A stretch of DNA of 61,154 nt, filler included, from Sluysia triapertura (lineage: Eukaryota): NCBI GenBank assembly GCA_046118255.1. It is 5 parts of 5 records of this genome, joined end to end, with 100 filler letters (N's around TTAATTAATTAA, not from the genome) between each part and the next. Parts side by side here need not be neighbours in the genome. Positions count along the whole stretch, not along the records: positions 1 to 11,206 come from JBJNIA010187357.1; positions 11,307 to 23,203 come from JBJNIA010159377.1; positions 23,304 to 34,279 come from JBJNIA010190663.1; positions 34,380 to 46,838 come from JBJNIA010106872.1; positions 46,939 to 61,154 come from JBJNIA010003114.1. One strand, given 5' to 3'. The notes below the pieces were generated by a model. The model did no database searches. It had not been told where the DNA came from and saw only the letters and a program-made list of their open reading frames with translations. Made by a program: the position numbers and the translations under genes. Below, one piece after another: positions 6,350 to 52,900 of the stretch (within the stretch, counting starts at the first letter, position 1; each line of letters opens with the position of its first letter).

Positions 6350-6491
6350 TGTTAGACTTCGTAATATGGACTGACCGGGGATCGAACCCGGGACCTTCGC
6401 TGTGCAGTTCGAATGCTCTACCACTGAGATATCAGCCCCGTCTAATGATTTTATTTTATTATAGTCAATTTTACCAAATGGCACCCCAACA
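6350..6491 (-). mobile_element. tRNA-Ala-like cassette element, copy 1 (TGTT..AACA ends, TSD ATAA)
   Basis: Minus strand reads GGGCTGATATCTCAGTGGTAGAGCATTCGAACTGCACAGCGAAGGTCCCGGGTTCGATCCCCGGTCAGTCCA; flanked by ATAA (6346-49) and ATAA (6492-95). Confidence 0.85.
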
Positions 6492-7474
6492 ATAATACAT
6501 AAAAATTAGCGTAAATGATTGATTAGTGAATACGTGTATCACCCGATAATTAATTGTTTTTACCAATGGGAAAGAAGAATCTTTCTTAACAATCTTCACA
6601 AATTTGATTGTTACCATATCTGTTGTCTCTATCTTTTTATTTAATTACTTGTAATCACTTGTAATAATTCGTAACTCTCTAATTGGAATTTCTAATTATT
6701 AGTGTGAGATCTAAGTTTTAATTGGACAGTTATGTTGCTGCCTATCTCATAGCAATTGCTCCTGGTTATTTAAGTCTTAGTCCATAAATAAAATGTTAGT
6801 AGCGCAGTAAAAATAATAATGATGAAGTTTCACTTTAAAAAACTACGATCATAATTTGAATAATTTAAAATCATATTGAGTTCGCGTGCAATTCGATTCT
6901 TTCACAATTAAGGGCTTGTCCACGTGATTTTTATATAAGAATGCAAAATATCAAAGTCTATGGAAGTCTTCGACTTGCTTTAATTTAATTGGATATTAGT
7001 GCGAATTTTTCTGACAAAATTTTAAAATCAAGCTCCTTAAATAATACATTACAATTGGGTTAAACTTAGTGCTATGAAATTCAGTTATTTATTTTATAAA
7101 TATATTTTATGTTCTTATTCAAATTAGTACTTGCAAAATATATTTTATTTAAAACAACTCGTGAAAAAAATACAACTGATTTTATATTATTTTATATAAT
7201 TTATAATTTATTACCTGAGTTTATGGACTTCTTTAAAATAGTCCTTCAAAAAGCGCTGAGAATTAAACTTTTTGGGAGAAATCAATAAAATAAATTACTA
7301 TAAATTAATAAATTACTATAATTAATACATAATGTAAACTTAAGAATAATGTCAAAGAGTATTGTTCTATAAATAACTTTTGTCTAAAAATAAGTTTAAT
7401 AAATAGTGTGTAATATTCGTTCTAAAAATCGATAAAATTGTAATCTAAAAATATAATAAATATAAACTTACTTG

Positions 7475-7499
7475 GTATTATTATTAGTATTATTAGTGA

Positions 7500-7540
<41 letters not shown>

Positions 7541-7560
7541 GTAGTAGTAGTAGTAGTAGT
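7475..7560. repeat. (ATT)n/(AGT)n compound microsatellite; similar tracts at ~5880-5940, 14930-14978, 17085-17157, 23860-23905, 58545-58590
   Basis: Directly visible trinucleotide runs. Confidence 0.9.
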
Positions 7561-8079
7561 ATTAATATTATCATTCCTTCTGAATTTAAATTTAATTCTT
7601 TCTAAATTGAAATTTAAAATTTAATTAATTATTTTAAATATTCTTCTAATTTTCTGAATGTAAGTCAAGGCCAGACAATCACTTGATCACAAGTTCACCC
7701 AACATTGTTAAACAACTTTATTGACACCATTTACAAGTCTATTTGCACAATCTTTTTCGCACAGTTCTTGGCATAATCTTATTCTCGAGTTCTCAACAAT
7801 TGTTCTCAAGCGTTTTAACACAGAAGGAATCGTTAGTTTGATTTATTTAAGTTATACTGTTTTAATAGTTTGTAATATTTTACCCAAAATAATTTTCTTA
7901 AAATTTTAGAGGAGTGATAATATTAAATCAAATTAATTTAAAAGATTATATATTAATCTTGGTAAAATTTTTATACGCTTGTAAATTTCTTATATAAATA
8001 CGATTGTAAATTTTTAGGTGCTATAATACATTTCCTTAAATTTATTAATTTTTATTCATTTTTTATTAATTTCCTAATG

Positions 8080-9500: not shown

Positions 9501-9854
9501 TCTGTGATTAATTCGAGATATAATTTTAAAAATATAAATGTTAAACGCATAGTCATTGAATAATTAGTACACAAACGTTATGTATAAATAAAGAGTTAAA
9601 TAGTGAAAATTTAGAACAAGTGAGAACTACTATTAGTTATAAATTTAGTTAGACAATATTTTATACCAGCTTTCGATACAAGTCTTTTTTGAACATTAAA
9701 TATTGTTGTATTATTATTAAGCTATTTATAGGTCAATATTATAAGTTATGTTGTATGTATAGATTGACATTATGAATTCATTTAATGTGTTTCAATTTAA
9801 TGTGTTAAATTTATAAATTATTGTACAAATCTTTAGGATTAATACTTTAGGTAA

Positions 9855-11206
9855 GACTTTATTTGTTTTAAGAATATTAATGGGCACTGATATTTTTCCA
9901 ATTCATATATTAGTATTGATTCGCCAGTGTCACAACTTGTTTGATCGCTCCTACAAAAAGGTCTAGACATCATAGTGCCATTTTCTAAATTAAAACTTTC
10001 GTTAAAAGATTTTAAACTTACTACACATATTTCCTGAGCTACTACATTGTGGTAAATCTTTCCTTCATATTCTATTGACCCTCTTTCACAAGTACCGTCA
10101 ATTAATACATTACCAGCCGTTCTAATATTATAAATTATTTTCTCGTTATTTTTAATTCTTAGTTTATCTCCTTTATTTAAACTTAAGTATCCAGTTTCAA
10201 ATGCATCACGACAATTGTTCGGGAATATTTTAAAAGGTTTTAATATGTTTGATATATCGATAATTGAAGAATGACTGTGATGTCCACAGTACCAGATTAC
10301 TATAGATCTTTTAATTAAACATTCTCTAACTAATGTTGTAACCAGATTTCCTTCTCGGTACACATTTAATATTTTCATATCTTTTATTTTGACTATATTT
10401 GGTCTTGATTCAGGACAATCTTCTTCCAATTTGAAGTCGACTACAATCAAAAGCTTTTATAGCCTTAGTTTTATGAATTCCAAATAATGTCAACAAAACA
10501 ATTATTTATTGAAGTTCCAAATTGTGGAAATGATCCATTGGTATTTCCTTTATTATTAATTAGTCGGGATATCGTATTAAGTGGTTCATTTAACATATTC
10601 CTTTCTTATTTTTCTTTACCTTTGTCTTTTATAATGTTTTTCCATCCTCCTAATTTTTCAGTCAGAGTACTTAATTTCTTATCAACGAAATTTATAACTT
10701 TATCTATGTTTTCTATCTTTTCTTACATTGAAAAATTATGTAAGCCATTATTATTTTAAGTCTATCTCTGTTAATTCCAGCGTTAATCTGTTTATGTATT
10801 ATGTTCTTGTATTGACCGTTATCTATGAAATCATTTATGTCTGTATTCTTATATCTTCCTTCCATAACTTTAATTATCTTAGTTAATGCAATTTTGTATT
10901 CCTTTAATTCGGGTAAAAGTGTCTTATACTTATCAAAGTTGGAAAATTTATTAGATAGTAAAGCGTAATTATAGTTTTAGTGCTTAAAGTTTCTTCTATA
11001 TTCTTTTAAGTAATTTTAGTTAAATCGATAGGTTTTCTATATATTGGGGTTGATATTATTGTTTCGTCATCATTATTCTTTCTAGGTCTACCTGGCCTTC
11101 TTTTAAAAGTATTTGTTTCTTTATCTTCGGTTTCAATATGTGGATTTTTATTTAAATCTATTATGTAATCAGGTTTATCTTCAGTGTAATCATCATTATC
11201 ATTTGT
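9855..11206 (-). pseudogene. Retroelement envelope glycoprotein (chuvirus-G-like), copy 1, with upstream AT-hook region; frameshifted and truncated
   Basis: ORF 9839-10450: C.IKRS..WYCGHHSHSS..CRDAFETG..GTCERG..C..DQTSCDTG. Upstream IKAFDC; KRRPGRPRK at ~11078-11104. Homologous to 38535-40215. Confidence 0.75.
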
Positions 11207-11306
11207 NNNNNNNNNNNNNNNNNNNNNNNNNNNNNNNNNNNNNNNNNNNNTTAATTAATTAANNNNNNNNNNNNNNNNNNNNNNNNNNNNNNNNNNNNNN
11301 NNNNNN
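11207..11306. other. Artificial contig linker (44N-TTAATTAATTAA-44N)
   Basis: Same 100-nt structure at all four gaps; the palindromic core gives stops in all six frames. Confidence 0.95.
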
Positions 11307-12458: not shown

Positions 12459-13110
12459 CCCTTTCGTTGCCGCTAGAACCAATTGGTACCACTCGTATTT
12501 CTGCAAGTTTCTCAGGCTTAAGCAGGTCATGTTACATATTGTTTAGAGGATTAAATAAGGACAATGTTTTGCATAATCGTTTCTGCTTTTAAAGTGTGTG
12601 CACAAATTTATTTCAATAATATACCACCATTTTGTGAGAAATATATTTGAATCAAATAAAATAAGTAAAAATATTGTTAGATATCATAAAATTGACTGAT
12701 CGGGGATCGAACCCGGGACCATCGCTGCGCAGTTCGATTGTTCTAATACTGAGCTATCAGCCTATTTTATTTTATCAGTTTTATTTTATTATAGTCAATT
12801 TTACAAAATGGCACTTTAGGCCTATTTACCCCAACAATATTATAAAGTCTAAAGTTATTATTACTTTTGTTAGAAGATGTCGGATTGCTTTAAAACATTC
12901 CACACTATATCACACTGTGATAGAGAATACTAAATTTACCAATTTTCACATGTTATGCTATTTAATTGAAAATTCATGAAAAATTATACTTTTTAAAATA
13001 ATTTTGAAATTAACAATAAAGCTTTTTACTGACTTTTCTTTACATATATTTCGTATAATCTCTCAAATAAATTTACGTTCGCAAAAATGCGTTCACCCGC
13101 GGTTAAAGGG
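12459..13110. mobile_element. Non-autonomous piggyBac-type element (TTAA TSD), containing tRNA-cassette copy 2
   Basis: TTAA|CCCTTT...AAAGGG|TTAA termini. Confidence 0.7.
12675..12836 (-). mobile_element. tRNA-Ala-like cassette element, copy 2 (TSD ATAT)
   Basis: ATAT|TGTTAGA...CCCCAACA|ATAT; B-box region conserved. Confidence 0.85.
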
Positions 13111-23303: not shown

Positions 23304-23427
23304 TTTACAAAGTTAAATTTCTATATTCTAAAAACTTAGTAATACGTCTCCAAGTTTGGTATAAAGCGTATATACTAAGCGAACCGACCTTACAGATAAT
23401 TTGTTAAGTATAAGAAAAATACTAGCA
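23304..23427 (+). mobile_element. 3' end of an LTR (subfamily A)
   Basis: AATACGTCTCCAA..TGGTATAA..CGTATATA..GCGAACCGAC..AGATA..GCA matches 47846-47936 and the reverse complement of 43422-43520. Confidence 0.8.
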
Positions 23428-23439
23428 AAACCGAACAAT

Positions 23440-26000: not shown

Positions 26001-26152
26001 TGTTGGGATATAGGCCTAAAGTGCCATGTTGTATAATTGAATATAATAAAATAAATTTGTTAGGAGCTGATAGCTTAGTGGTAGAGCATTCTAACTGCGC
26101 AGCGAAGGTCCGGGGTTCGATCCTCGGTCAGTCCATTTTATGAAGTCTAACA
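26001..26152 (+). mobile_element. tRNA-Ala-like cassette element, copy 3 (near-TSD ATTA/ATCA)
   Basis: TGTTGGGATATAGGCCTAAAGTGCCAT...TTGTTAG-GAGCTGATAGCTTAGTGGTAGAGC...GGTTCGATCC..CAGTCCA-TTTT-ATGAAGTCTAACA. Confidence 0.85.
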
Positions 26153-27354
26153 ATCACATAATTAAGAATTATTTGACTTTGCTCAATATTAAGGCTTTCC
26201 TTGCATGAACTTGGCCAAACCATACCTTCATTGAAAGATCTTAAAACACGTGCAATAGCATTCCTCATTCAAACATTATTCACAAAAACGTACTTTTCTT
26301 AATTAAGATTTTAATTAATAATCAATTTTATACTTAATCTTATTTTATATTGAAAGATTTAGTATTTGATAAGTTTTTTTATGTATTCAGCAAGTTTTAG
26401 ATGTTTTCATATTTACCACTGTCATTCCTTCATCTACTTCTTTGTGTCAATTACTACCACATCAAATTCATCTTTAGCAATGATTTTATTTCTCAAATAC
26501 TTTAAAGATTTCAATTACTTTACAAAATTGCTCAAAGATTTTAAATACTTATCAAGGTTTCAAGATTACTTAAAGGTCAGTAAGGTCTCAAATGATCTCA
26601 AAGGTTCTTAATGTATTTAAACTCATATCAAACTCCATGGTATTTTTCAGCTGTTGACATGACCATAAGCGTTTTTGTCTTCATCACTCTTAATCCAACA
26701 ATGTTTATAATGTTCTATGCATCGTTTTCTATCAATTCTTATTTTATTTTATAGTTCTGTTTCTTACCTATCTTCTGCTGTACAGCTGAGCAATCCCAAC
26801 AGTATTAGTACAACTATCGATATATTGAATCATGCGGAATGAACATTAAAAGGTTTAGTCTTATTGGAAACAACTTACGAAATGAATTTAAACATTTTCA
26901 AAATTCATAATTCGTATCCAACAATTTTAACACAAATAACTATAATGACCGTTAACAGACAGATTGATTAAAAAGTTTAATAGAGTAGCAATATTGTAGT
27001 CATTAATTTTTTTGACTAGAATAGTATTACTCTTATGAATATTTTTATTTTCATTTTATTCAATTTTTTAAATTATTATCAATTTTTAACAAGTACCTAG
27101 ATATAAATATGTAACACAAAATTAATAAATTAAAATGTAATAATTACGAAAAATAAATAAAAAATTACGTCATTAAATTGGTTTACTGTCAGTGTGTGAT
27201 ATTTTTAGTCAGTCTGGGATATTTTTAGTAGTTTAAGAGTTTCTTACTCTTTTAACTTCTACTTACGGTACAAAAATTTACGCTTCTATTTCGAAAATAG
27301 TGATCTTATGAGTCTAATTAAAATGACTCTTGATGATGATATGGAGAGAGATAT

Positions 27355-27505
27355 TGTTAGACTTCATTAAATGGAGTGACCGGGTATTTCTTGCCACGCA
27401 GTTAGAAATACTCTACCACTGAACTATCAGCTCCGTCTAACAAATTTATTTTATTATATTCAATTATACAACATGGCACTCTAGGCATTTTTTGAGATAA
27501 CAACA
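27355..27505 (-). mobile_element. tRNA-Ala-like cassette element, copy 4 (degenerate; ATAT/TTAT flanks)
   Basis: TGTTAGACTTCAT..GG..TGACCGGG..CTCTACCACTGAACTATCAGCTCCGTCTAACAA..TGGCACT..CAACA. Confidence 0.8.
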
Positions 27506-32638: not shown

Positions 32639-33226
32639 TTAATGTCCTGCTGCTACTGCTTCCTTTCTTCCATTAATTTGACCAGATTTAACAGCAAGAT
32701 TGTGAAATCGAGCAATATTTACTTCCACCGTTGTTATTTGATCTTTCAGAAACTCTAAGTAATTCTCCAAATTTTTCAAGTAATCCGCAGCCGCCTTTTC
32801 ATTTTTTACCAATACTGCTTTAGCTTCATCTAAAGAATATTCCATCATAACATTAGCACCTAGCCATAAATTCACTTTATCTACTTTTTCGATTTCTGCA
32901 AATCCATGTAACTGATTTGTTATCTCATATGTTGTTTCAAATGGCATCGAATCTTCTGATATTGATTCAAAATGATTCACTACGTCAAGAGTTTTACGAA
33001 TATCAGGAATTTGTTGAAGTAATCTTAATTTTTTAGAATAAAAATTACTTTCCCATAATCTGTATTTTTGAAGCAACTCTTCCATAAATTTACGAGCTTC
33101 CAGAAAATTAGCATATCCATGAGTTTTAATATATTCTTCGGGATTTTCTACAAAATCTGCACGTGGAATTCCGTAATCATTATCTTCAGTAATTGTTTTA
33201 GATGCTGACGTTTGAGTTGATGCCAT
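32639..33226 (-). CDS. VBP1: Prefoldin subunit 3 (VHL-binding protein 1), single exon
   Basis: GIP.A.FVE, QIPDI.KTL, KV.LWLGANVMMEY.LDEA, L.FLKDQITT.EVN.AR..N. Confidence 0.96.
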   Translation of the reverse strand: MASTQTSASKTITEDNDYGIPRADFVENPEEYIKTHGYANFLEARKFMEELLQKYRLWESNFYSKKLRLLQQIPDIRKTLDVVNHFESISEDSMPFETTYEITNQLHGFAEIEKVDKVNLWLGANVMMEYSLDEAKAVLVKNEKAAADYLKNLENYLEFLKDQITTVEVNIARFHNLAVKSGQINGRKEAVAAGH

Positions 33227-36299: not shown

Positions 36300-38400
36300 C
36301 CAAACATAAATGTCAACGGTTTGTGATCGACATATAAATAAACATTCTGTCCTAATAGATAATGTCTAAATAGTTTGCAGGCGTGTACTATGGCTAAACA
36401 TTCTCTTTCAATTGTTGAGTAAATCATCTCAGCTTTATCCAAACGTCGACTAGCATATGCAATTACTGCTTCTAAATTGTTTTTATCTTTTTGTCCTAAA
36501 ATTGCACGAATAGCATAGTTACTAGCATCAGTAGTCTATATATATGGTTTGTTAATATCTGGGAAAATTAGTTTTGGTGCCGTAGTCAGTCGTTCTTACA
36601 ATTCCTTAAATGCTTTAGTTTGTTCATTAGTCCATTTAAATTCAACATTCTTTCGTGTTAACTTCCTAAGTGATTGTGCTATGTTAGCAAAATTTTTAAC
36701 TAATCTTCTGTAGTAATTAGCTAATCCTTGAGAACTTTGAATCTTTTTTACATTATCAGGTTGTGGGAATTTTACCACCTTTTCTGTATTTCTCGGATTT
36801 GGTTTTAATCCATCTTTTGATACTATGTGTCCTAAAAACTCGATTTTCTCTTCAGCCCAAACGTATTTGGTTGGTTTAATTTTGAACCTAGCTATTTTCA
36901 ATCTATTTAGAATATTGTCAATGTCCTTTATGTGTGTATCGAAATATTTAGAAAATATTATTATGTCATCTAAGTATACCATGCCATTTTTACATCATGA
37001 TAATACAAAATTAATGCACCTTTGGAAGGTGCAGGTGCATCATCGCTTTTATGTTTATCTTTTTCAGCAATTTCGATTTGTCAATAACCGCTTTGTAAAT
37101 CAAGAGTTGTAAAATATATAGCGTTTCCTAGTTTGTCCAGCATTTCATCTATTCGTCGTAAAGGAAATACGTCTTTTCTTTTTATCTTATTTAGTTATCT
37201 AAAATCTATGTAAAATCTCACTGTGCCATCTTTTTCTTAACTGGTAAAACTGGAGATGAGAAAGGTGAGAAGCTTGGTCTTATCATTGCGGCTTTTTTCA
37301 TCGTGTCTATTTGTTCTTGTGTCGCCTTTTGATTACTGTATTCTGTATGGCTTTTTTCGGATTACTTTATCTATTATTAGTGGTATTTCTCACTATTGCT
37401 CTTGGATATCGGTAAATGATACTCTATAATTGATCGATCTGTTTCTAGTCAAATTCTTATTAGTGATTTCTATTTCACCGTAATCTTCATCTTTTATTTC
37501 ATGTTGTATTTGTATATTACTCTTTATCTTATTTTCACATTTATTTTATGAAATTAAGTTAATGTGTGCCGGTATCATATATTTAACCATTTTTCTTAGT
37601 TTTGTCCCTGTATAAAGCCATTTATTGTCATTTGTGTAGTTTATAATCTTAAGAGGTATTTTCCCTTCACAATTATTGCACACTGAACTGGCTATTCCTA
37701 AATCTAGCTTTTCTCGATTACTTTTGACGCAATAAACATAATGTTTCCGTTCAATAAACTGTTTGTCTTGGCTGGCATTATGTATTCATTTCTTTTTATT
37801 AACCAAATTAGTTCATCGACGTATATGTCATCATCATCAATAGTTCTTCTTGATCTACTATCCATTAATTAAACTTGGTCGAAATCTTGTGTTACTCCAT
37901 TTAATTGAAACAATATATCCATTCCCATTATCATTTCTTCTGGACATTTTTTCATAACTGTTAATTTGATTTCTAATTTATTTTGTCCTGTCTCGCATAT
38001 AGCTTTCATCACTCCGGTTATATTAATGGCATCGCCTGTAACTCCTGATAAATGAGAGCTATGATCAGCTAATTTTTTTAATTCATCATTATTTAAGAAA
38101 CTTTCGTTGATTAGTACTGTTACTGCTCTACCATTTATTCTAGCGTTTACTATTGGTCTCTTTGATCCATTATAATTATTGTTAGCACATATCATATAGA
38201 TTACATGGGGTGGTGACGTTGGGGTAATAGAATATAATCCTCTTTTCTGATTTTCTTTGGTTGTTTCATGGTTTTCTGAATTTCAATACATTTTTGATTT
38301 TCTATTATTTCTTCATTTTCTCTCTTTTACAATGTTTGTAATTGTTGTTTTTCTTCTTTCTTTTTCGCCTTTCTTTTCTTAATGCATTTATTTGAACATT
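36300..38400 (-). mobile_element. Decayed Ty3/Gypsy pol: protease - RT - RNase H (integrase absent)
   Basis: Protease-like ORF 37869-38195 (active-site DTG lost); RPSFSPFSSPV; DVFPLRRIDE; VYLDDIIIFS; EFLGHIVS; GLANYYRR; APKLIFPD; DASNYAI; AYASRRL; YVDHKPL. Confidence 0.92.
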
Positions 38401-38534
38401 TGCGTGATGGTGAAGGAGGTATTTTGCCAAAAATGGAAAACACCCATTTATTAATTTCCTTGTGAAACCTGAAATTTTATAAATCCCAATTACTGAAAAA
38501 GCTATTACCTTAATAATTATATATATATATATAT

Positions 38535-40215
38535 ATTCCTGTCACTTTTTCACATCAAATTACTGTTCCCTTAGAGATAAAAATTAAGTCATCTTCTCCT
38601 TTACTGGCCATTAGTATTGTCTGTGTTTCGATCTCATGTAGTCTTTTTCTTTGTACATGGCCAGTATTTTGGTCATTTCTCTAATGAGTATTTGTCTTTA
38701 TCTTGATACATAAATTCTGATATTACATTAAACTTTATTTGTTTAAGGAATATTAATGGAGATTGAAATTTGTCCAATTCATAAATTAATAATGATTATT
38801 CAGTATAGCAACTGGTTTGATCGCTTTTGCAATATGGTCTGGACATCATGGTGCCTTTTTCAATGTCAAAACTTTCATTAAATGATTTTAGGCTTACAAC
38901 GCATGTTTCTTTTGCGACAACATTATGGTAAATTTTTCCTTCATATTCAACTGTTTCTCGTTCGCATGTTCCATCTATCAATTTATTTTTTCATTATTTC
39001 CCATTTTTAATTTGTCTCCCTTTGTTAAATAACCGATCTCAAATGCATCTCTACATTGTTTATGTAATATCTTAAATGGTTTAAGTTATTAGATAATTCT
39101 CTTATCGACGAATGACTATGATGACCGCAATATCAGATTGCCACTGATCGTTTTACCATTCATTCATTTATCAGAGTCGTTATTAGATTACCTTCTTGGT
39201 AAACACTCATTACTTTAGTATCTTTTATCTGTATTCTATTTGGCCTTGATTCAGTACAATTTTATGTGTCCAATAATGAAAATTTTCTGCCTATTTGAGG
39301 CTGGATACAGTCAAATGTCTTTATTGCATTAGTTATATTTTTGCCGAACATTGCTAATAGTATTATAATAAATAATGTCCTATTTGTTGAATTACCTATC
39401 CTCGGTATCGCATTATTTAATATATTACCGTTATTGCCGAATAATTGTGTCATTATATTTGTCGGCTCTTCCGTTTTTTGATTCGTTTTCTCTTTTATTA
39501 TGTTCCGCCAACCTTCTTGATTTTCAATCCATAATTTAATTTTCTTAATTACAAAATCTATAACCTTATCTATTTTATTTTTGGGAACCATTTTTCATTG
39601 TTGCATTGGTATATAACATATGTTAAGATTATTTTCAACTTTTTCTCATCAAATCATTTATTAATTAACTTATTTATTACCAATTTATATTGTTCGTTTT
39701 CTATGAAATCACTAATATCTTTATTCTTACATCTTTCTTCAAACTTATTAATTTATTTATAGAAACTTTAGTCTTTATTGATTTTCGTTAATAACTTCTT
39801 ATATTTAGTAAAATTAGTAAATTTTTCGGATAAAAAGGCATAAATTATTCGATTTCATCATAATTTTCACAATTTATTTTTGATAAATCAAAAGTTTTCT
39901 TATTATATCAGTCTTGTCTCTTCGTGGACGTCAAAGTCTTCTTTTTATTGTGCTTGTTTCCTTGTCGAGAGTTTCTATATGTGGGTTTTTATTAAGGTTC
40001 ACTATATAATAAGGTGGCTCATCTTTTTCTACTTCAGCATCAATTTCAATTAGCTCATTATTTTCTGCTTCGGCATCAATGTCAACTATATGGTATCATC
40101 ATCTTCCATTAATTGTCTTAGTATTGTACGTGAGGATTCATTATCTTTTTTATTTGTTTCACTTTCAACATTTTTTGAATTTTTATTTACTATTTCTGCC
40201 TTTATCATTTCGTCA
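38535..40215 (-). pseudogene. Retroelement envelope glycoprotein (chuvirus-G-like), copy 2, with upstream acidic/AT-hook-like region
   Basis: Hydrophobic signal-like TLFIIILLAMFG..NA then IKTFDC..FSLLDT.NC; YCGHHSHSS; ORF 38796-38981 nearly identical in protein to copy 1. Confidence 0.75.
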
Positions 40216-40262
40216 TGATCACCCGTAATCTATTAAATATTCTCTGGGTTCTCACATCCTTT

Positions 40263-41110
40263 TGTGAGAAAGTTAAAGTGAAACAGATAGAATAAAAGCC
40301 TAGCTTAAAGTGAGTTCACCAACGAACTAGACTTACCTGTTAGGGCCAGCCGTTGGATTTTCTATCAAATTTTGTAAAATGGAGGTTCTAATAACTGTTT
40401 ATGCTGTGATTCCTTAGAAAAACTCTTAATGCTAAATTTCTTATTTATACAGAAGGTTTACTTCAATAGATTTTAATGAGGTTCTTAAATCGAACCTGGA
40501 ACACTAATATTTTAATGAAGTTCTTAAATTGAGCCTTTACTAATTACTAAATGATTTTAAGCAAATTCTAAATAGAATCTTTAAAAACTTTTAGAATTTT
40601 AATAAGTGATTTTAATAAGGTTCGTAATAAAACCTATAAAGCTAATAATAAAAATTCAGATTAAAATAAATTTATTACAAAAAAATTTTTATACAAATCG
40701 ATATACAAAAGATAATAATATAGTTTAAATACGATTATACAAAAATAATCTTCGATTAGAGTTTTTTAAATAATAAAATTTAATGTGCTACCTTGAAATG
40801 GTAGCGAAATTGGAATTAAATATTTAGTAGATATTAAATAAGACATTTTAAAAATTGCGGAAAACCTATCAATAAGAAACTAACGACAATCTTACTGCGA
40901 TTATAATTGAATCCTAGTTCTTCGAAAAGGAACTGATAGATATCTCGAAGCAGATGTAAAGTTTTACAAAAATTGTCTGAAAAATTTGTGCGTTTTAGTG
41001 TTCATTTTAGAGGTTTATATACTTCTCAAAAGAATGACCTCGAGGTAAAAAAATTGTTATTAAAACAAATTAGAAAATAAATTAAAGATTAAAAAATAAT
41101 AAATACTTTC
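40263..41110 (-). mobile_element. LTR-like segment (subfamily C)
   Basis: Ends in CA on the minus strand; AATAAA 40671-76; TATAAA 41014-19; same spacing and hairpin layout as LTRs A and B; short purine run AAGGGAAAG at ~41106-14 as a possible PPT. Confidence 0.55.
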
Positions 41111-41319
41111 CCTTACAAAAAGGAAAATAAAAATTAGTGTTGCGACAATATTAAATGACAATTAATAAAAGATTTTAAAAATTAAAGATTTAATATTACA
41201 TATAAAAATCTTACTTTTAGAAAAATTATAAATTAATCCAATTAAATTTTTCGAAATAAGTAAAGTTTATATTTATATTTACATATATATGAATAATTGA
41301 TTCTGCATTATTTATACCT

Positions 41320-43190
41320 TTATACATTTAGTTTAAGCATATCTATTACATCTTCTACTACTATAGTAATGGATAATTCCATAAATACATTTACCAATTC
41401 CGCCAGTAATACGTTAATTTTCATTAATATTTCAGGTTGTTCTATTCTGTCGGCTAAATCTATTTTTCTTAATAATTTTCTTGCTTTAAAGCTATGTGGG
41501 CTACCTTCCTGACTTAAATAAAGTAAACATGACTTGATACTTTGTCTGTTAAACATGTATAGATTCATCTTTAAAAATATATTTAAATTTTTATCCGTAT
41601 TTTTACCGTCTGCTAAATCTTCTTCTATGTTGATTACACAATCGATATCACTCAATGTTGATTTACTATCCTCATCCTCATCCGTTATACCGCTATGTCT
41701 CATCCATCTACTTACAATTGCTTCGGCATGCTTTCTTTCTTCTTCAATTTGTTGAGCACTTTTAATTATTTTTGATTTTTGTTCCCATCCTCACTTTCCT
41801 TTTCCATTACTAATTGCATAAAGTAATTATGTAAATAATTAATAAAAATATCCTCATCATCCTCATGCTTACTCCTTAATTTCATTATTGTCCATTTTTG
41901 CCATATGAAATTCGCTTAACATCTCTGCCTCTTCATCTGTCAGTGTTCTTAAATGTCTTTCGTATTCGTAATCTTCATGCTCCTCGTCATAATTACATTT
42001 TATTTGCCCTTCATTTCTACTCTTATCGAATCTTGCTCTTCTCGGTGAGGCCTGTCTAGAGTTCGACATTTTATTTAAATCCAGTTTAAAAGTATTTGAC
42101 TTTAATTTATTACAGTTTCGAGCATATTACAGTTTCTACCACAATTGTGACATACTATATCTCGTTTCATAATTGTTATTATAGTTTGATCGTGCGGGAC
42201 TTTTCTCTTTTTCGGAAAAATTGTTATTATTCGATTGTTTGCTAGGCCATCTTGACAGTGGACGTTGTTCATACTCTCTTGAGCCCATATTATTTATTTG
42301 TCTTCTCTCAAATCCTCTATTACTCCTACCAACATTAATGTAATTTCTTCCTGTATTATTATTTCTAAAATTATTCGAATTTCTTCTATTATCACCTCGA
42401 AAATTATTGCTACTATTGCTATTAAAACCACTGTTATTAAAATTATTTTCTTCAAAAGATTATTAAAATTGTTGTCTTCAAAAGAATTCTTATACTTATT
42501 TCTTATATTATCCTTAAGAGAATTATCATACTCTTCTTATAATTATTTCTCATATTTTGTTATCATCTATATAACTTATATTTTTTCTAGTTTCTTTTTT
42601 AGTACGCTCAATACTTTTCAATTTCTTAATTGTCTTTGAATGGCATTTCTTCAATTAAATCTACATAAATTCGTAATTCGGGACATAGTCCATTTTTAAA
42701 CTTAATATTATTTCTTTTCGGTTATCTCCAATCCTGGCTCTGGACGCCAAACTTCTAAGCGCACAGGCAAATTCATAAACTATTTTGTTCGGTTTCTGCA
42801 CCCTTATATTAAGCATTCTCGCATAGTATTTTCTAATGCTATTTCTTCGGTAAAAACATCAACAAATGTATTCCAATCTTCCTTATGTTCATCTTTTATT
42901 TCCTTATATGTTTGTATTGCAACACCAATTAAATAATATTGTATTCTCTTAAACTTATCTATTTGTTACCACTCATTAGCTTTACTAGGCTATCAAATTC
43001 AAATAAAAAGTCACAAAATTCTTCCTCGGCGCCACTAAACTTGAGCATTTCTGGGGGTATTACCATTGGCTTAATATTCTGAGTTAGTTGACTCATACAA
43101 TCTTTAAATTCTTCATATGGTAAATCTTTCAAGTGAGTTTCTTAAAGTTATTTTATATTTCTTCTTAGGGTTATCAATTTTATCTATGCT
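41320..43190 (-). pseudogene. Decayed gag (capsid-like region, degenerate zinc knuckle) with a long C-terminal extension
   Basis: KFSGAEE..KANEW..YYLIGVA..Y; FKNGLCPELR; CHNCGR...RNC at ~42110-42152; continues through ORFs 41869-42069 and 41320-41703. Directly downstream of the PBS. Confidence 0.7.
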
Positions 43191-43397
43191 TAACCTAGTT
43201 AACAATAAGATTCAAAAATCAAAATCAAACAATTAACAATAAACTTAACTTCAAAAATCAAAAATCGTAACTTAAATGATAAACTTAAAACAAAATCAAT
43301 ATTAACTTAAACTTATCAAATAAAATTAATTAACAAAATCAATATCACCAAATAAACTTATCAGAAACTTAATGCTTAACTTAATATGCTTCGAGTA

Positions 43398-43415
43398 GTC
43401 CCAATTCGGGCGCCA
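43398..43415 (-). promoter_or_regulatory. Primer-binding site, tRNA-Lys-like
   Basis: TGGCGCCCGAATTGGGAC, 16/18 identical to the canonical tRNA-Lys(UUU) PBS TGGCGCCCGAACAGGGAC; 6 nt from the LTR terminal CA. Confidence 0.85.
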
Positions 43416-43421
43416 AATTTT

Positions 43422-44300
43422 TGCAAGTGTTGCTCTTAAAAACTTAACTTACAAAATATCTAAGGAGTCGGTTCGCCTAATACATACGATTTATACCACT
43501 GTTGGAGACGTATTATTAGGATTTAATATTTATACTTAATATTAATAATATACTTAATATTATTAAGTATATTAATAATATTAATATACTTAATAATATA
43601 CTTATAGATTTTAAAACCTATACTTAGTTTAAAACTTTCGTATATTTGCTGTTAGTCAACTTCTTAATTATTTATATTTTATAATTAAGATTTGATAATA
43701 TTTTAGTAGATTATGCAACCATTTTTGTGGTGTTGCTTTAAAATAATTTAATGAATTTAGAAATTGCGCAAAACTTTTTATGGTGTTTCTTTGAGAAATT
43801 TGAGGTTAAAAGGAAATTACTCAAACAAAAACCTAATTCACTAAGGTTTATTATACAAATACTTAAGTTAATAGATTACAATTGATGGCTATAATAGTGA
43901 TAGTGATTTTAAATATGCGATTCAACCTCGGTTTAATGTAAACTGCGCAACTCTTATTAAGATGTTGCATAAAAATGAAAAAATATTTTTAGTATATTTT
44001 AAGATTCCCTGCGAAGGTGAATCTAAAACTTATAAAAAACTAAATTACTTGTGCATGGACAAAAATGGTAAAGGTAATGCTTCTGAAAATTTTCCAAATT
44101 GTTCTTCTTTATTGTCAAAAAAATTGTTATCGAAAACTTATCTAAAAATGTGTCTTTTTTCTAACCTATAGAAATCTTAAGCATCCATCTTGAAAAATTA
44201 ATTAATTAAAACAAATCTTTTATTTCAAAAATTTTATTTTCTTCCTTTAATTTTTAAATTTAGCTTTATAAAAATTTATAAAAATTTAATTTTCTAAATT
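43422..44300 (-). mobile_element. 5' LTR (subfamily A); U3 start uncertain
   Basis: Abuts the PBS; AATAAA 43847-52; extensive similarity to the reverse complement of 47250-47936. Confidence 0.8.
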
Positions 44301-45880
44301 TATTTTATTTAATGTTTTGAATTTAATTTATTTTTCCTTTGAAATTAATAATTCTATAAATCTGATTAATGATTTATTTAATTATAATAAAAATAATATT
44401 TACAAAATACTAAAATAATAATAAAATGATAACACAATAAAAAATATAACACTTTATGAAATAAAAATATAGCTTTGACATTGTGAATGGACGAAGTCGA
44501 GCAATATTCAAATAATGCTATTAAATACACCTATTTAATTTTTAAAAATATTTTGATATAAAATTTTAATACTTTCTAAAATAATTTTATTTCTTTATTT
44601 ATGTTGTATTATTAAAATTATCATTTAATTTATTAATGAATTACCATATTTAATTTGATGTAAAATTCAAATTTAATTGTATTTCCACATTCATCATAAT
44701 CAGTATCATCAATATCATCAATATTGCTCGATTTTAAATATTAACATTAATTTGTCAATAATTTATTATAATTATTACTTTCTTATAATATTCATTCAGA
44801 TAAACACTTCAAAATTAAAGGTTAGTTGAAATGTTTTGTAAATATTTTAATTTTATTAATGTCTCTTGTGTGAAAAATAGTCCAATTCCAACCTTATAAC
44901 ATGGAGATAATGTGGAATGACTATAAGTAATACTCGGAGTCTGAATTAACACAAATAGCGCTGTCATTGGTTGTAACGAGTACTTTGAGTGATGTGATTT
45001 GTTAGAAGAAGTTGTTTAGGGAGGATCTCATTGGTAATTTTACTTGGTGTATAGAGCTATGGATTCATTTGTTGACAAAAAAGATTATTTTATAAGTGTG
45101 ACGTATCATTGTGCATTCTATCAAAAGTTGTTATTGGAAATAAGTTTTATATTTGATCAAATTTGTATTCAATATAAATTGATGCAGTATCGTCAATAAA
45201 TATTGTTATGTAAGATTTTTCATAGTACTTTTATAAATACATTTAGCTCTCTATGAGTCCCTTACTTTAGCTGGTTTATGTTATGTGATATTAATTATAA
45301 TTGGAAACGATTTAGTTGAGTATCGAACTCTTTAAATTTGAAATTAAAATTGATTTAAACTTTATTTGTATCGTTAAATCGGAATTTGTTACGAATATGA
45401 TGTTCCATAATTTTATTTAAATTCAACGATTTAATAAAATGAATAAGAGAATTACTAACAACGATAATAATTTCTTTATTTTTAATTATAACAAAAAGTT
45501 TTTATGTTGGTGAGGTTTGACTTTAAGATGTTAGTGTTAGGTTTTAAACTTTTGGTTATAATTTCATTTAAGTTTAACAAAACTATTTCTTTATAAATTA
45601 TTAATTCATTTAAATTTAATAAAACTATTCATTTTATTAGGTTAAAGAAACTTGTTATTAACTGACTGTTTAGAAATTAATAATTTATTATCATGAGATT
45701 CGTGCTTAAGGCACTTCAAATCATTTATACTAAATGGTTGAGGGCGGAACAAATAATAAAAAGCTGGTGCAATTTTATTATCATGAAATTTGAATATATC
45801 TACAAATGTTATTATGTAAAATAACATTTCGCTGACAATAAGAATCTTACAATGGAAAGGTTTTTTACGTACCACTTGAC

Positions 45881-46938: not shown

Positions 46939-47051
46939 TATAAAAATTATAGTAAATCCTAATAATACGTCTCCAATTTTGGTGTAAAGCATATATATTA
47001 GGCGAACCGACTCTTTAGATAATTTGCTTAAGTGTAAGAAGAACACCAGCA
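46939..47051 (+). mobile_element. 3' end of an LTR (subfamily A), directly followed by another LTR
   Basis: AATCCTAATAATACGTCTCCAA..TATATTAGGCGAACCGAC..AACACCAGCA. Confidence 0.8.
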
Positions 47052-47936
47052 CTATTATAATTAAATAAATCATAAAATTATTTATTAAATTCAAAATAAA
47101 GAAAATCTAAAAATAAAATAAAAAATTTATAAAATTAAAATATCATAAAATTATTTATTAAATTTAGAAAATTAAATATATTTTCATAAAATTATTAATT
47201 TCATAAAATTATTAAATTTAAATTAAATTTTCATAAAATAAAAAATTTTGTTTTAAGAAATTAATTCTTTAAAATGGATATCTAAGAAAAACTTGGATAT
47301 AAATATGTTAGGAAAAATTTGAAGACACAATTTTTTAGATAATTTTTCGAGAACTTTTTTTGACAATAAAGAAGAATAACTTGGAATTTTTTCAGAATAA
47401 TCATTTTTACCATTCTTTTCCATGCACAAGTAATTTAGTTTTCCGATAAGTTTTAGATTCACCTTCGTAGGGAATCTTAAAATATACTAAAAATGTGAGT
47501 TGCGTAACGTTACAATAAATTTATACTACGATCAACCGAGGTTGAATCATATATTTAAAATCATTATCACTATTATAATCATCAATTGTAATCTATCAAT
47601 TGTAATCTATTTGTATAATAAACCTTAGTGGATTGAGTTCTTTTGGTTGAGTAATTTTCTTTTAACCTCAAATTTTAAGAGCAACAGCATAAAATGGTTG
47701 CGTAATCTACTTAATTATTATCAAATTTTAAAGCAACGCCTTAATGCGTGTTGCGTAATTAAATTGACTAACAGTCTGTAAACGAAAGTTTTCAACTAAG
47801 TGTAAGTTTTAGAATCTCTATTAAGTATAAATATTAAATCCTAATAATACGTCTCCAATAGTGGTATAAGTCGTATATATTAGGCGAACTGACACCTTAG
47901 ATATTTTGCATAATTTTCTAAGAAACTCCCTACGCA
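47052..47936 (+). mobile_element. LTR (subfamily A), no PBS after it (solo or 3' LTR)
   Basis: TATAAA 47298-303, AATAAA 47617-22, terminal GCA 47934-36; reverse-complement match to 43422-44200. Confidence 0.8.
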
Positions 47937-48299: not shown

Positions 48300-48700
48300 T
48301 ATTAAGTAAGAAAATTACTGCAAAATTATACTTGAAATATTGACTACTTAAATTATCAAGATTCTTTTAAGCTAATCAAGTTAATAGAGTTTTCATAACT
48401 AATAATATTTGACGAGATCGAAAACTTGTGCCTCAATCTCATTCGTTGCGTGCCTTTAGGGATCAGGAAATTATTGGATAATTAAGATTTACGAAATTAC
48501 GAAATAGATCGATTACAATCATAGATTTATCTTATTGTAGTATCTCTGACAAATTAATGTCAAAATTTTGAGGAAAGTCAAAAATTTATAATTAATTATA
48601 TTAAAGATGTCAGACTTTGCGTAAACGAAGCAGAAATAAAAGTTTTGAACATTTTTTTGAAAAGTATGCTTCAACAAATATCACAATTTTCTGTGTTTAC
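48300..48700 (+). pseudogene. Possible decayed LRR (F-box/LRR-like) fragment
   Basis: SITIIDLSYCSISDKLM at ~48508-48560; surrounding frames broken. Confidence 0.3.
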
Positions 48701-49342
48701 CCACAATAACTATACCTAATCTAATAATTTTGCTACCACTGTACATTACATTAAAATTCTAATTAAAAAATTTTTTTTATTACTTTATTCAACTATTGTA
48801 TTATTTTTCATTTCGTTTTGTTTAATTTATTTTCTTTTAATATTTTAATTAAAATACAAAATTCACTTCATTTTGAGATTTTGACTAAGGTAGTCTAAGT
48901 TTAGAGGATCTTAGAAATGATAAGAATCTGTTTAGAACTAACGTTTACTACTATTGCAAATAATATTAATTTAAGAATATCTTTATTGAAACACACTATA
49001 GCAGTAGTATTGCCTTGTTAATAAATAATAGTAATAACAATAACAACCAATCAAAATCGAGGTTTCCTATAAATATCCAATTATATACAGAATATATTTA
49101 AACGTTTTCAAAATGAGTATCAAATGAAAATTTTGCATCATTATACAACAAAAAATCGTTACGAAAGCCCTTTTTTAAAAACAAAATATTCGATATAATT
49201 GAGTGATAAAAATATTAATTTAGTGTTTATTTTTAAATGATTTGTGTTAATTAATAAATTATAATATCGTAAACAAAGCTGTACAATAACGATTAGCAGT
49301 TGTATGTATTACAGACGAACTAACATGAACAATAAAAAAATA

Positions 49343-49798
49343 CTACCTTTGTTCAAAAATGATTGTCTGATTTGACATTTGCTGTTAACTTAACAATATA
49401 TAAGATGACAATAAATCTTAAAAACAAGTAATAGTTCAGTTTATAATAATTTTGTAAATATGACTAGGGCAATTTCTGAAATTTGTAGTTACCAAAGTAA
49501 CACACTGCTATTTTCTTTTCAGTTCAAATATAACTTTAAATCATGGAAATCAAACACGTTCTGGAGTAAAGTACAGAGAGAAATGCCATACTACAAACAC
49601 TTCTGGTGAGATCTAACAATAAGAACAATTAATATGCAATTTGGAAGCAACTGAAATTGCTCACAATGTATTACGAGATATGTAAAAATATAATTTGTAA
49701 AATATGTTCATAAATAAAAAAGTTGACTAAAGCGAAATTGATGTCAATATATATTGTATATAAATACTAAGGAGACAATCATTTTTGAACGGAAGTAG
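49343..49798. mobile_element. Tc1/mariner-type MITE, ~25-bp TIRs, TA TSD
   Basis: TA|CTACCTTTGTTCAAAAATGATTGTC ... GACAATCATTTTTGAACGGAAGTAG|TA. Confidence 0.8.
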
Positions 49799-49961
49799 TA
49801 TTAAATATTAAACCTGTCAAAGCTGATTATTTTATTTATTTGTTGAGCTACCTTAACCAGTTTGATTCAACAATAAATAATAATAATAATAATTATTATT
49901 ATTATTATAAATATAAAATATGCACACAAATTAATATCCTAAAAAATCAAAATATTTTTTC

Positions 49962-52900
49962 CTAAATTCGTACAAAATTATTTTCCAACAAATCTGTAGT
50001 ATTCGGACGTTTATCTGGATCCACTATTAAACAACTTTCCATAAAATGTTGTGCTTCTCTAGTCACCGGTGTCTTTTCTGCACTACCATCGCATAATTCG
50101 GGAATTTTCGGCTTTTGCTTTCTACCAAGCTAAAATAAAATTTTGATATTTACTTTTGCAAATATCACAACCCTACAAAATAATTTTAAGATGTCAAATG
50201 ACACGTTAAAATTATTTAAAACTATTTAAAATTATCAAAAAATTATTTAAAATTCTAAAAAGAAATTTTATTTTAGCTTCTAAAAATAGCATAGAATATT
50301 TTAGAACATTCCATCGACTTTCATTGGATGATAACTAGTATATAAACTAGCATCAATACAATGAAAATCGCCATTTGTAATAACACTAATTTTCAAACAA
50401 TATCAAATTGAAGCAGCCATTTGTAAAACTACGTTTCAAATTAACTATTTGGACTTCGCTATCTTTAACAACGTCGTTTGGAGCAACGATCTTTATATCG
50501 CAGTCAGATTTGGATTCAAATCTATCAGTTCCATGTTCAAAGTAATTTGTTTATTTTAAGATCGGTATTAGCTTTATTTAAAGAAGTTAATATCATCAAA
50601 TACACGCAAAATAAATAATATTCTATTTTGTAAAGTTTAAGGTTGCCCGATATATTGAAGGGTTAAATACAGTGCAGAATATAATTAAAATAGTTAATAC
50701 CCAAAACAGTTTTAACTATAAAATAACATTCTTAACCTCCATTTCTCTTATTTATATCCTTATTTTATAATTAATCCAAACTGTTTAATTTATTTTCTGT
50801 TTTAGTTAAACGTTTTGAAGTTTAATTTATTGCACAATAATTTGAGTTTTGTACTATAACAATTTTTGACCCTCTCATATTTAAGTTATCAGTTTAGGAT
50901 TATTACGTTTCATATTGCTACAGAAGTGCCCTCTGCTCAATTTTCTATTTTGCCGTAGGTTTAGATTTAAACATAAGTACAGTTACACTTTTATAATTGT
51001 CCCTGATGCATATTAATCGAGAAAAATGAACTCGCACAACTTTTGTTAGATTTCATAAAATGGACTGACCAGGAGAATCGAACCCGGGACCTCTCGATGC
51101 GCAGTTCGATGCTCTACCTGTCTAACAATTTTGTTTTATTATAGTCAATTATACTATCATTATTCTAAATGGCACTTTAGGCCTGTATCCCAATATATTC
51201 ATAATTCCCTATAGAAATATTGACTATTGGATTATCAAATAATACAAATGTCTTCGACTGGCAGACGAAAAGAAAAAATGATAAAGATAGAAATATCAAA
51301 AGTGAAACAATAAATGTTTCAAAATAACGTAAAGAATGATTTTAATTGTCGAAAGCTTGAATCGAAGAATGAAAGGCCGAAAACTTGTATTGTATTATTG
51401 GATTGTATAATCATTTAATTTATCAAATAGTGGAAGACGATCCAAATTAGATACTCTAGAAATGAGACAAAATTCATGTATTTTATACCTTGACATAACG
51501 AACGCAACATTTTTTGAAAAAATGGAATTCGAGCTTCAAGAATATGTAAAACGGGAACTGTTTTAAAGCATACACATGCACTGACATTGAGTATGGTGAT
51601 TTAATAAAGGATTGTAATCTGGCAAAAATTATCCCCTAAATGTCCCATGCTTGGCATTCGATACGATTAAAAACTGTTTTGAAAAAAATGAGGAATTTCC
51701 AGCGTATGATCAAAATGATTTTGACGAAGAATTTATTGAAATGATTAAAATTACTGATGGAGAGGATGAACTTCCTCAAGTCGAGTTGTCACCCGTCTGG
51801 AAGTTATATAAAAAATGAATATATGCTTAAAACAGTTTTGAAGGCGATATTGCTATCCAAGAATTGAAAAAATGTTTTGGCTTCGACAAAACCAAAAGAT
51901 ATCGACTTTTTGGTTAGGAAAAAGTAAATGCTATTCTTAGACTTCATAAAATGGACTGACCGGGGATCGAACCCGGGACCTCTCGCTGCGCAGTTCGATG
52001 CTCTACCACTAAGCTATCAGCCCCATCTAACAATTTTTAAATTACTATAATCAACCTTAGGCTTATATGCCAACACTATAGCATATTTTTGTTTTATAAG
52101 TAAATGTTTATTAGATTTTCCGTTATTTTTTTAACGAACATGGAATTAGAAAGATTAATAGTTAATAGCATCAAAAGTTAAAAAAGGTCAACATTTTGAA
52201 TTAGCAAAGAAATAATAATGATTTAAACAATGAAGAAAACTGAAAACTGAAAATGTGTCGATGTTTATATTAATTATTAAATCAGACACCATAACTAATA
52301 TATTAGTTTGAGGAAAAAGTTCGGGCGTCATGTTAAAATAATCCTTTTTATATTTCTTAGTGAATTTGTTAATTCAAGTCGTGTGTGCGTGTGTTTGATT
52401 AATATTGAGTTGTTGTTTATAACAATGTTCGATGAAATGGTGCTTTATTTGAATAATACAATGTATAACAAGTCGCATAACCCAGAAAAACCAGCAGCAA
52501 AATTGAAGAATCTGACGAATTTGAAGTTTTGTCGCATCTCTTTTGATATCATTGTACCACTTTACGAAAGTTTTGATGAAGGGCTTTTCGATTCAACGTC
52601 GGAGTAGCACTTTGACCACATCCGAAAGACAATGATGGTCTTTATTTTAAAGAATAAAGCATGAAGGTAGTATAATAGGTTAATCAGCTGTTAACAATGT
52701 AATAGAACTCAAGGTAGGTAGTCATAGTAATGCATTAATCTAAAAGATTATCTGTTTGAAAAACCTTTAGAAATCGTACTTTAAATTTTTGTCGAGTTTT
52801 AATGTTTTAATATTAACTTTTATTATTATGAAAGATAACATTAAAATTCATTTTAAATTTTAAAATTCGCCGTAAATTTTAGTTACAAAAATGCTATTTT

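What the first reader, a model, noticed from the sequence alone, without database searches (positions are those of the whole stretch)
6350..52075. tRNA-carrying ~150-bp mobile element with integrase-type ends and 4-bp TSDs, not a conventional SINE
Seen: six copies (6350-6491, 12675-12836, 26001-26152, 27355-27505, 51044-51195, 51935-52075) in four of the five contigs. Consensus on the tRNA strand is TGTTGGG..AGGCCTAAAGTGCCAT..TATAATAAAATAAA-TTGTTAGAC-[GGGCTGA TAGCTCAGTGG TAGAGC..GGTTCGATCC CCGG TCAGTCC A]-TTTT-ATGAA-GTCTAACA. About 60-70 bp upstream of the tRNA travels with it, there is no A-rich tail, the ends are TGTT..AACA, and the flanks are 4-bp duplications (perfect ATAA, ATAT, CTAT; one mismatch in two more copies). 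Known: SINEs begin at the Pol III start and have variable-length TSDs, whereas TG..CA ends with fixed 4-bp TSDs are typical of Gypsy-type integrases and Ginger transposases. Cassandra TRIMs carry 5S RNA in their LTRs. Inference: either a solo LTR of a TRIM driven by a tRNA promoter (a tRNA analogue of Cassandra) or a Ginger-mobilised MITE dispersing a Pol III unit. I know of no described family like it.
Basis: partly seen in the sequence, partly recalled or inferred. Interest (0 to 1): 0.88.

Follow-up and report, generated by a model that had tools for sequence, protein, structure and literature searches.

The report
Flatworm mini-retrotransposon with tRNA look-alike
Six copies of a 150-base repeat that holds a decayed tRNA look-alike are likely the leftover end-pieces of a tiny parasitic retrotransposon of a kind described in 2024 (Helenus), found here in what is likely a flatworm, a group that paper does not list.

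Summary
Six dispersed 141-162 bp copies sit in 4 of 5 contigs, with TGTT..AACA-type ends and 4-bp target duplications (3 of 6 perfect, P about 2e-5). The claim that no such family is described is wrong: Kojima 2024 (PMC10886601) defines Helenus, TRIMs with a tRNA-like sequence in the LTR, 4-bp TSDs in animals and many solo LTRs. The anatomy matches: 52-77 bp U3, tRNA-like part, T4, 17-bp tail. Ginger fails, because the terminal inverted repeat is at most 4 bp and Ginger needs 40 or more. One contig of the only public run joins an element end to an element start across about 35 bp. By eye that stretch is a decayed tRNA-Trp primer site plus a polypurine tract, so a two-LTR form likely exists; this rests on one contig. 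The host is likely a non-neodermatan flatworm (one-gene tree), a phylum absent from Kojima's list. This scan earlier noted Helenus-type solo LTRs on other DNA (six notes, mostly fungal; unchecked). Verdict: new member of a known kind. Possibly new: the host phylum, an interior shorter than any listed (43 bp), and an inner 8-bp inverted repeat.

The parts
6350..6491 (-). Copy 1, solo LTR, 142 bp; short deletion near the 5' end of U3; TSD ATAA/ATAA (6346-6349, 6492-6495); tRNA-like part 6438-6367
12675..12836 (-). Copy 2, solo LTR, 162 bp; TSD ATAT/ATAT; inner 8-bp repeat decayed; the one change on both sides of a pair in the anticodon-like stem
26001..26152 (+). Copy 3, solo LTR, 152 bp; TSD ATTA/ATCA (one mismatch); the copy on which contigs were laid
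26001..26063 (+). U3-like part of copy 3: TGTT start, AT-rich, TATA-like motif 22 nt before the tRNA-like start (22-30 nt in all six copies)
   Evidence: the promoter role is inferred
26064..26135 (+). tRNA-like part of copy 3 (inferred R region): A box 26071-26081, B box 26114-26123; D and anticodon arms most like tRNA-Cys(GCA), T arm like tRNA-Ala (by eye); anticodon loop enlarged to 10 nt
26136..26152 (+). T4 (26136-26139) and U5-like tail ending in the 8-bp terminus (26145-26152); 253 contigs leave the repeat exactly after 26152 with unrelated flanks
27355..27505 (-). Copy 4, solo LTR, 151 bp; T arm partly deleted; TSD ATAT/TTAT (one mismatch); perfect inner 8-bp inverted repeat (27435-27442 against 27355-27362)
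51044..51195 (-). Copy 5, solo LTR, 152 bp; acceptor/D-arm 5' side deleted; flanks CTTT/TATT (two mismatches, TSD not shown)
51935..52075 (-). Copy 6, solo LTR, 141 bp; TSD CTAT/CTAT; best Rfam tRNA score (47.9 bits, 52023-51952)

Best explanation
The six repeats share fixed ends, 4-base target duplications and a decayed tRNA look-alike, and are likely solo LTRs of a Helenus-type miniature LTR retrotransposon whose full form is likely two such repeats around a primer site and a purine tract of about 35 bases in all. Shown: dispersed copies, conserved ends, 4-bp TSDs, A/B boxes, and one end-to-start joint. Inferred cycle: (1) Pol III starts at or just before the tRNA-like part of the 5' LTR, helped by the TATA-like U3. 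(2) It reads through the first T4, then U5, PBS, PPT and the second U3, and stops at the second T4, giving an RNA of about 265 nt whose repeated end (R) is the tRNA-like part. (3) A Gypsy element acting in trans packages the RNA; host tRNA-Trp primes the minus strand, the strand transfers via R, and the PPT primes the plus strand. (4) Gypsy integrase inserts the DNA at AT-rich sites, leaving 4-bp duplications. (5) LTR-LTR recombination leaves the solo LTRs seen here. This layout would rebuild the upstream promoter in every new copy, which a SINE cannot do. The tRNA-like part is a promoter, not a working tRNA (inferred from the 10-nt loop and the deletions).
For: 4-bp TSD excess at k=4 only. 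Unrelated flanks. Sharp 3' end: 253 contigs with loose ends after 26152, agreement 0.42. Layout like published Helenus LTRs (TG, U3, tRNA-like part, T-run, short tail, CA), and a length inside the 104-323 bp range of animal Helenus LTRs, which have 4-bp TSDs and include LTR-only families. Two joints go from the 3' end back to the 5' start: one with 33 letters printed (depth 19.4, single-copy level) and one with the letters between unknown (1 contig, depth 22.8). By eye the 33 letters are 2 T, then 18 letters matching the complement of a planarian tRNA-Trp 3' end plus CCA at 13 of 19 positions (5 transitions, 1 gap; tRNA rows), then a 13-letter tract with 11 purines and 7 G that abuts the next LTR within 2 letters. 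Nulls from the window: PBS match of 13 or more in 47 of 60,582 35-mers (every second position sampled), transitions only 0 of 60,582, together with the PPT 0; PPT-like end in 101 of 121,166. The copies themselves decay GC to AT, 27 changes against 4, as the PBS does (4 of its 5 changes are G to A). Fish Helenus have a 43-bp interior that is little more than PBS and PPT. The window holds Gypsy-like RT and env fragments.
Against: No two-LTR copy lies in the window: none of 6 copies has a TGG primer site downstream or a G-rich tract upstream. The two-LTR form rests on one contig from one run that may be the window's own sample; its outer ends and shared TSD were not seen. About 0.5 chance same-strand neighbours within 40 bp are expected among 253 records. 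The PBS and PPT criteria were set after seeing the spacer, and about 50 tRNA types could have been tried (0.08% becomes about 4% for the PBS alone). One search listed no pile-up of loose ends at the 5' end (6 of 282 rows shown), and depth ramps up over the first 25 bases. Folding is mostly no better than shuffles (z from -2.0 to +0.7 over 6 folds) and covariation is not significant (94 of 500 shuffles). No Gypsy with a Trp primer site was found in the window; the Gypsy-like element there has a Lys-type site. Transcription is untested.
Confidence: 0.87

Rival explanations
1. Solo LTRs of a longer, possibly autonomous Gypsy element whose LTR captured a tRNA or SINE; the 35-bp joint would be an internally deleted derivative.
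For: TGTT..AACA ends and 4-bp TSDs fit any Gypsy LTR. The interior was read in one contig only.
Against: The A and B boxes persist in most copies, which points to Pol III, and Pol III would stop at T-runs in a long interior of a genome of about 25% GC (inference). No copy in the window adjoins a PBS or coding sequence. The PBS abuts the PPT with nothing between, as in fish Helenus.
Confidence: 0.06
2. A Ginger2-mobilised MITE that carries a Pol III unit and moves by cut and paste.
For: TGTNR termini, 4-bp TSD and AT-rich targets resemble Ginger2 (RTATAY preference; PMC2836005). An inner 8-bp inverted repeat flanks the tRNA-like part.
Against: The perfect terminal inverted repeat is 4 bp in four copies and 1 bp in two, with 7-9 of 20 identity, against 50-180 bp for Ginger2. 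The TSDs flank the outer ends, not the inner repeat. The PBS/PPT joint has no role in DNA transposition.
Confidence: 0.04
3. A tRNA-derived SINE or a set of tRNA pseudogenes, spread by LINE machinery or segmental duplication.
For: Internal A/B boxes and a T4 signal. A tRNA-Gln-derived SINE family is reported in Schistosoma mansoni (PMC2770079).
Against: 52-77 bp upstream of the tRNA-like start travel with it, the 3' end is fixed 17 bp past it with no A-tail or simple repeat, TSD length is fixed at 4, and the flanks are unrelated.
Confidence: 0.03

Closest known systems
Helenus (TRIMp3), animal families; Kojima 2024, Biology 13:119, PMC10886601 (main text read whole; supplement parts 1, 5, 7, 10, 11 of 11 read, plus one motif search)
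   Same: tRNA-like sequence with A and B boxes inside a TG..CA LTR of similar size (bivalve, brachiopod and nemertean LTRs 104-193 bp); T-run and short tail after the tRNA-like part; 4-bp TSD; solo LTRs; a PBS for a tRNA 3' end (Trp is used by a wasp family); a very short interior in the fish LTR-11_DR group (43-48 bp).
   Different: Host phylum not among the six listed, and flatworm/Platyhelminthes/planarian/Schmidtea occur 0 times in the text. The interior of about 35 bp would be below the shortest listed (43 bp). A motif search of the supplement found no matching family (two 8-9-letter motifs of the tRNA-like part 0 hits; the other motifs hit single unrelated places or Trp-type primer sites). 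The tRNA-like part is Cys-like by eye. The inner 8-bp inverted repeat is not mentioned in the paper; I did not screen its consensus sequences for one.
Cassandra and Ajax (5S rRNA-bearing TRIMs), as described in PMC10886601
   Same: Small-RNA-derived Pol III promoter in the LTR; Cassandra is transcribed from the 5' LTR cassette to the 3' LTR cassette.
   Different: 5S-derived instead of tRNA-derived; Ajax makes 5-bp TSDs; hosts are plants and nemerteans.
ta-TRIM of taeniid cestodes; Koziol 2015, PMC4558846 (12 passages read)
   Same: A flatworm TRIM with mostly 4-bp TSDs (52 of 57), many solo LTRs and a proposed autonomous partner (lennie).
   Different: 198-bp LTR, interior of about 590 bp, tRNA-Leu primer; no tRNA-like part in the LTR is mentioned in the passages read; host is a neodermatan.
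Ginger1 and Ginger2/Tdd DNA transposons; Bao 2010, PMC2836005 (9 passages read)
   Same: TGTNR ends and 4-bp TSD; Ginger2 prefers AT-rich targets.
   Different: They have TIRs of 40-270 or 50-180 bp; here 4 bp at most.

Membership tests
Helenus (TRIMp3) | tRNA-derived sequence with A and B boxes inside the LTR | tested here: met
   Rfam tRNA 3 of 6; A box 4 of 6, B box 5 of 6; flanked by U3 and tail
Helenus (TRIMp3) | LTR with TG..CA termini | tested here: met
   TGTT..AACA at both ends in 4 of 6 copies, one substitution in each of the other two; sharp 3' end in 253 contigs
Helenus (TRIMp3) | 4-bp TSD (animal families) | tested here: met
   3 of 6 perfect, 5 of 6 within one mismatch, P about 2e-5 and 4e-5; other lengths no excess
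Helenus (TRIMp3) | Full form: two LTRs around a short non-coding interior, under about 1.3 kb, with one shared TSD | tested here: inconclusive
   Absent from the window; two end-to-start joints in contigs, one with its letters printed; outer ends and shared TSD not seen. Kojima also lists LTR-only families
Helenus (TRIMp3) | PBS just after the 5' LTR and PPT just before the 3' LTR | tested here: met
   In one contig only, and decayed: 13 of 19 to tRNA-Trp by eye, and a 13-letter purine tract; nulls use criteria set after the fact
Helenus (TRIMp3) | Transcription by Pol III from the LTR (unvalidated even for published Helenus) | not testable with these tools
   No RNA holder listed; needs small-RNA or RACE data
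Helenus (TRIMp3) | Autonomous Gypsy partner sharing the primer tRNA | tested here: inconclusive
   No Trp-type site in the 61-kb window; the Gypsy-like element there has a Lys-type site at 43415 (-); the rest of the genome is not held
Ginger1/Ginger2 MITE | TIRs of 40-270 bp (Ginger1) or 50-180 bp (Ginger2) | tested here: not met
   Perfect TIR 4 bp or less, 7-9 of 20 identity (ranges)
Ginger1 | CCGG/CCGT-specific TSD | tested here: not met
   All six flank pairs are AT-rich
tRNA-derived SINE (SINE2) | 5' end at the tRNA start, A-rich or repeat tail, variable TSD | tested here: not met
   52-77 bp upstream part, fixed 17-bp tail, fixed 4-bp TSD; SINE features partly from PMC10886601, partly recalled
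An already named Repbase/Dfam family | Sequence match to a deposited consensus | not testable with these tools
   Neither library is offered; only Kojima's Data S1 was searched, by short motifs

The most novel reading that the evidence does not exclude
An independently born flatworm Helenus lineage, built on a tRNA-Cys-like cassette, that is the most stripped-down TRIM on record by interior length: about 35 bp holding only the primer site and the purine tract. Its packaging and strand-transfer signals would then have to lie in the LTR itself. The inner 8-bp repeat could pair the U3 end with the U5 end, extending the acceptor stem. That would bring the two R copies together and could shield the tRNA-like fold from tRNA-processing nucleases.
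Probability: 0.35. Interest if true: 0.5.

Novelty: new member of a known kind. Interest (0 to 1): 0.3.

Why it matters
It would add flatworms as a seventh animal phylum with tRNA-promoter TRIMs and support Kojima's view that such elements arose many times. An interior made only of PBS and PPT would be a natural minimal substrate for asking what a Gypsy particle recognises in trans, which PMC10886601 names as unknown. In practice, a repeat at about one copy per 10 kb that passes tRNA finders (2 of 6 by ARAGORN, 3 of 6 by Rfam) will inflate tRNA gene counts in this genome. It is not a new kind of element.

Tried and rejected
Copies 5 and 6 (same strand, 739 bp apart) as the two LTRs of one element: rejected. 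Copy 6 has its own perfect TSD, no primer site follows it, and the two differ by 12% plus indels. tRNA-Ala origin (G3-U70, TGC in the loop; identity rule recalled): softened, because planarian tRNA-Cys rows match the D and anticodon arms better by eye. A kissing-loop dimer signal from the palindromic loop: dropped, since the tRNA-Cys loop already holds a palindrome. The T-rich start of the loose-end majority line as a hint of many PBS junctions: dropped, because records starting with A extend past 26152 and are filtered out (table 8). Summed contig depth (up to 1.95e6 against about 15-20 single-copy) is not used as a copy number. Exact-pattern scans: 0 hits in metagenomes, 0 in viral contigs, and 5 metagenome hits with a 20-mer that are unrelated DNA with no tRNA and no element. 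NSUN5 homologues did not place the host (best named hits 42-47%). No RNA holder listed. No whole genome held. Paper searches showed no flatworm Helenus in their listings; the library lacks most subscription journals and Repbase Reports. File 3 of the PMC7962491 supplement could not be searched, and 6 of 11 parts of Kojima's supplement were only motif-searched. Look-ups of earlier findings by genome and by sequence were empty.
Full report
Observation. The window is five contigs joined by linkers, about 25% GC. They are 77-90% identical and decay from GC to AT, 27 changes against 4, so they are old neutral copies. On the tRNA strand each has a 52-77 bp AT-rich upstream part starting TGTT (TATT in one), with a TATA-like motif 22-30 nt before the tRNA-like start. 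Then come a 72-nt tRNA-like part (58 and 62 nt in two deleted copies) and a 17-nt tail with T4 (intact in 4 of 6) ending AACA (AAGA in one). Flank mismatches at 4 bp are 0,0,1,1,2,0, with P about 2e-5 for three perfect pairs; no other length from 2 to 8 shows an excess, and the flanks are unrelated.

Host. No genome is held. The intronless prefoldin-3 at 32639-33223 has cestode, trematode and monogenean proteins as its best named hits (44-53% identity). In a tree of 25 rows (24 of the 120 listed hits, picked for names and spread) it falls in a clade with all 6 flatworm rows and 2 unnamed rows (support 100/99), outside the 6 neodermatans (96/92). The host is therefore likely a non-neodermatan flatworm; this rests on one gene.

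More copies. One public run holds this DNA (share 0.72) and may be the window's own sample. On copy 3 with its flanks, 9,623 contigs were laid, part of them on a second repeat beside it. 253 leave the element exactly after its last base with unrelated sequence (agreement 0.42), so the 3' end is sharp and the family has at least hundreds of copies. No matching pile-up at the 5' end was among the 6 of 282 loose-end rows shown, and depth ramps over the first 25 bases, where the window's copies also differ by indels; the 5' end therefore rests on the six window copies. Of 28 joints, 15 were shown in table 5 and 12 of 13 rows in table 5c. Two go from the 3' end back to the 5' start: one with the letters between unknown, one with 33 letters printed.

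The joint. By eye the 33 letters are two T, an 18-letter stretch and a 13-letter tract with 11 purines and 7 G, and two more letters precede the next TGTT, for an interior of about 35 bp. The 18 letters match the complement of a planarian tRNA-Trp 3' end plus CCA at 13 of 19 positions, with five transitions and one gap (tRNA rows from the supplement of PMC7962491; passages of its main text). Among random 35-mers of the window, 47 of 60,582 reach 13 identities, none with transitions only and none together with a PPT-like end; a PPT-like end alone occurs in 101 of 121,166. Against this: the criteria were set afterwards, many tRNA types could have been tried, about 0.5 chance neighbours are expected, and it is one contig whose outer ends were not seen. 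I read it as a decayed full-length LTR-PBS-PPT-LTR copy.

The tRNA-like part. It can be drawn as a cloverleaf with 88% of cells paired, but covariation among six copies is not significant and folding energies mostly match shuffles. The acceptor stem is paired and unlike that of the planarian Cys or Ala rows seen. The D and anticodon arms resemble tRNA-Cys(GCA) and the T arm tRNA-Ala (by eye). The 10-nt loop and ARAGORN's inconsistent calls (Ser, undetermined) argue against a working tRNA. The 8 bases before it are the reverse complement of the last 8 bases of the element (8/8 in one copy, 5-7/8 in the others; chance about 1e-3 within U3), and 3 of 4 short folds pair them. This may be an RNA helix joining the U3 end to the U5 end, or the vestige of a shorter ancestral LTR; it is unexplained.

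Mechanism (inferred). Pol III would start at the tRNA-like part of the 5' LTR, read through the first T4 and stop at the second (leakiness of A-flanked T4 is recalled, not from a call). The RNA of about 265 nt has the tRNA-like part as its terminal repeat. A Gypsy particle would reverse-transcribe it from tRNA-Trp and the PPT, integrase would give the 4-bp duplications, and recombination would leave solo LTRs. The Gypsy-like element in the window has a Lys-type primer site, so the partner is unidentified. Nothing here tests transcription or present activity.

Comparison. Kojima 2024 (PMC10886601; whole main text; supplement) defines Helenus by these features: a tRNA-like sequence in the LTR, PBS and PPT, 4-bp TSDs and Gypsy dependence in animals, frequent solo LTRs and LTR-only families. 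Animal LTRs are 104-323 bp and interiors 43-621 bp. Six animal phyla are listed and flatworms are not mentioned. Ginger fails on TIR length and SINE fails on ends and TSD. The flatworm ta-TRIM (PMC4558846, passages) has a 198-bp LTR and a Leu primer. PMC12859917 and PMC13570524 (passages) cite Helenus without adding hosts; PMC2770079 (passages) reports a tRNA-Gln-derived SINE in Schistosoma. Other papers were seen as search listings only. Repbase and Dfam could not be searched, so a deposited name is not excluded. Six earlier notes of this scan describe Helenus-type solo LTRs in other genomes, mostly fungal; I had found the paper before and did not check those notes.

Verdict. A real, high-copy repeat and most likely a new flatworm family of Helenus (confidence 0.87). 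It works like Helenus and meets every defining feature that could be tested, with the full two-LTR form supported by a single contig. Interest 0.3.

Noticed in passing
window 36596-43540 (-), 9839-10972 (-): Broken Gypsy-like element with an RT fragment (PF00078, 36596-36994) and a tRNA-Lys-type primer site at 43415. 9842-10456 encodes a Monjiviricetes-type fusion glycoprotein fragment (PF24664, E 2e-19), with a 66%-identical second copy at 38732-39848, which lies upstream of the RT on the same strand.
   Followed up: partly
window 43430-44390 (-), 46949-47930 (+), 23326-23430 (+): A second LTR-like repeat family, about 75-90% alike; one copy ends just before the Lys-type primer site.
   Followed up: partly
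window 26160-26238: A different high-copy repeat right beside copy 3: summed contig depth up to 2.3e6, loose ends before 26160/26171 and after 26237; no second long match in the window.
   Followed up: no
window 28761-30741 (-) and 32639-33223 (-): NSUN5-like methyltransferase in two frames, with a 114-bp tandem repeat in its acidic, lysine-rich tail (28794-29162), and an intronless prefoldin-3 gene.
   Followed up: partly
window 51196-51934: The interval between copies 5 and 6 has broken reading frames with protein-like stretches on the + strand; unclassified.
   Followed up: no
window 26093 and 26102 (copy 3 numbering): Two common variants in the contigs would each add a fifth pair to the anticodon-like stem, which hints at subfamilies; unphased.
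   Followed up: no
L001-L005: Chance 20-25-base matches in unrelated metagenome DNA of 38-40% GC; L001-L004 show the same sequence around the match.
   Followed up: yes
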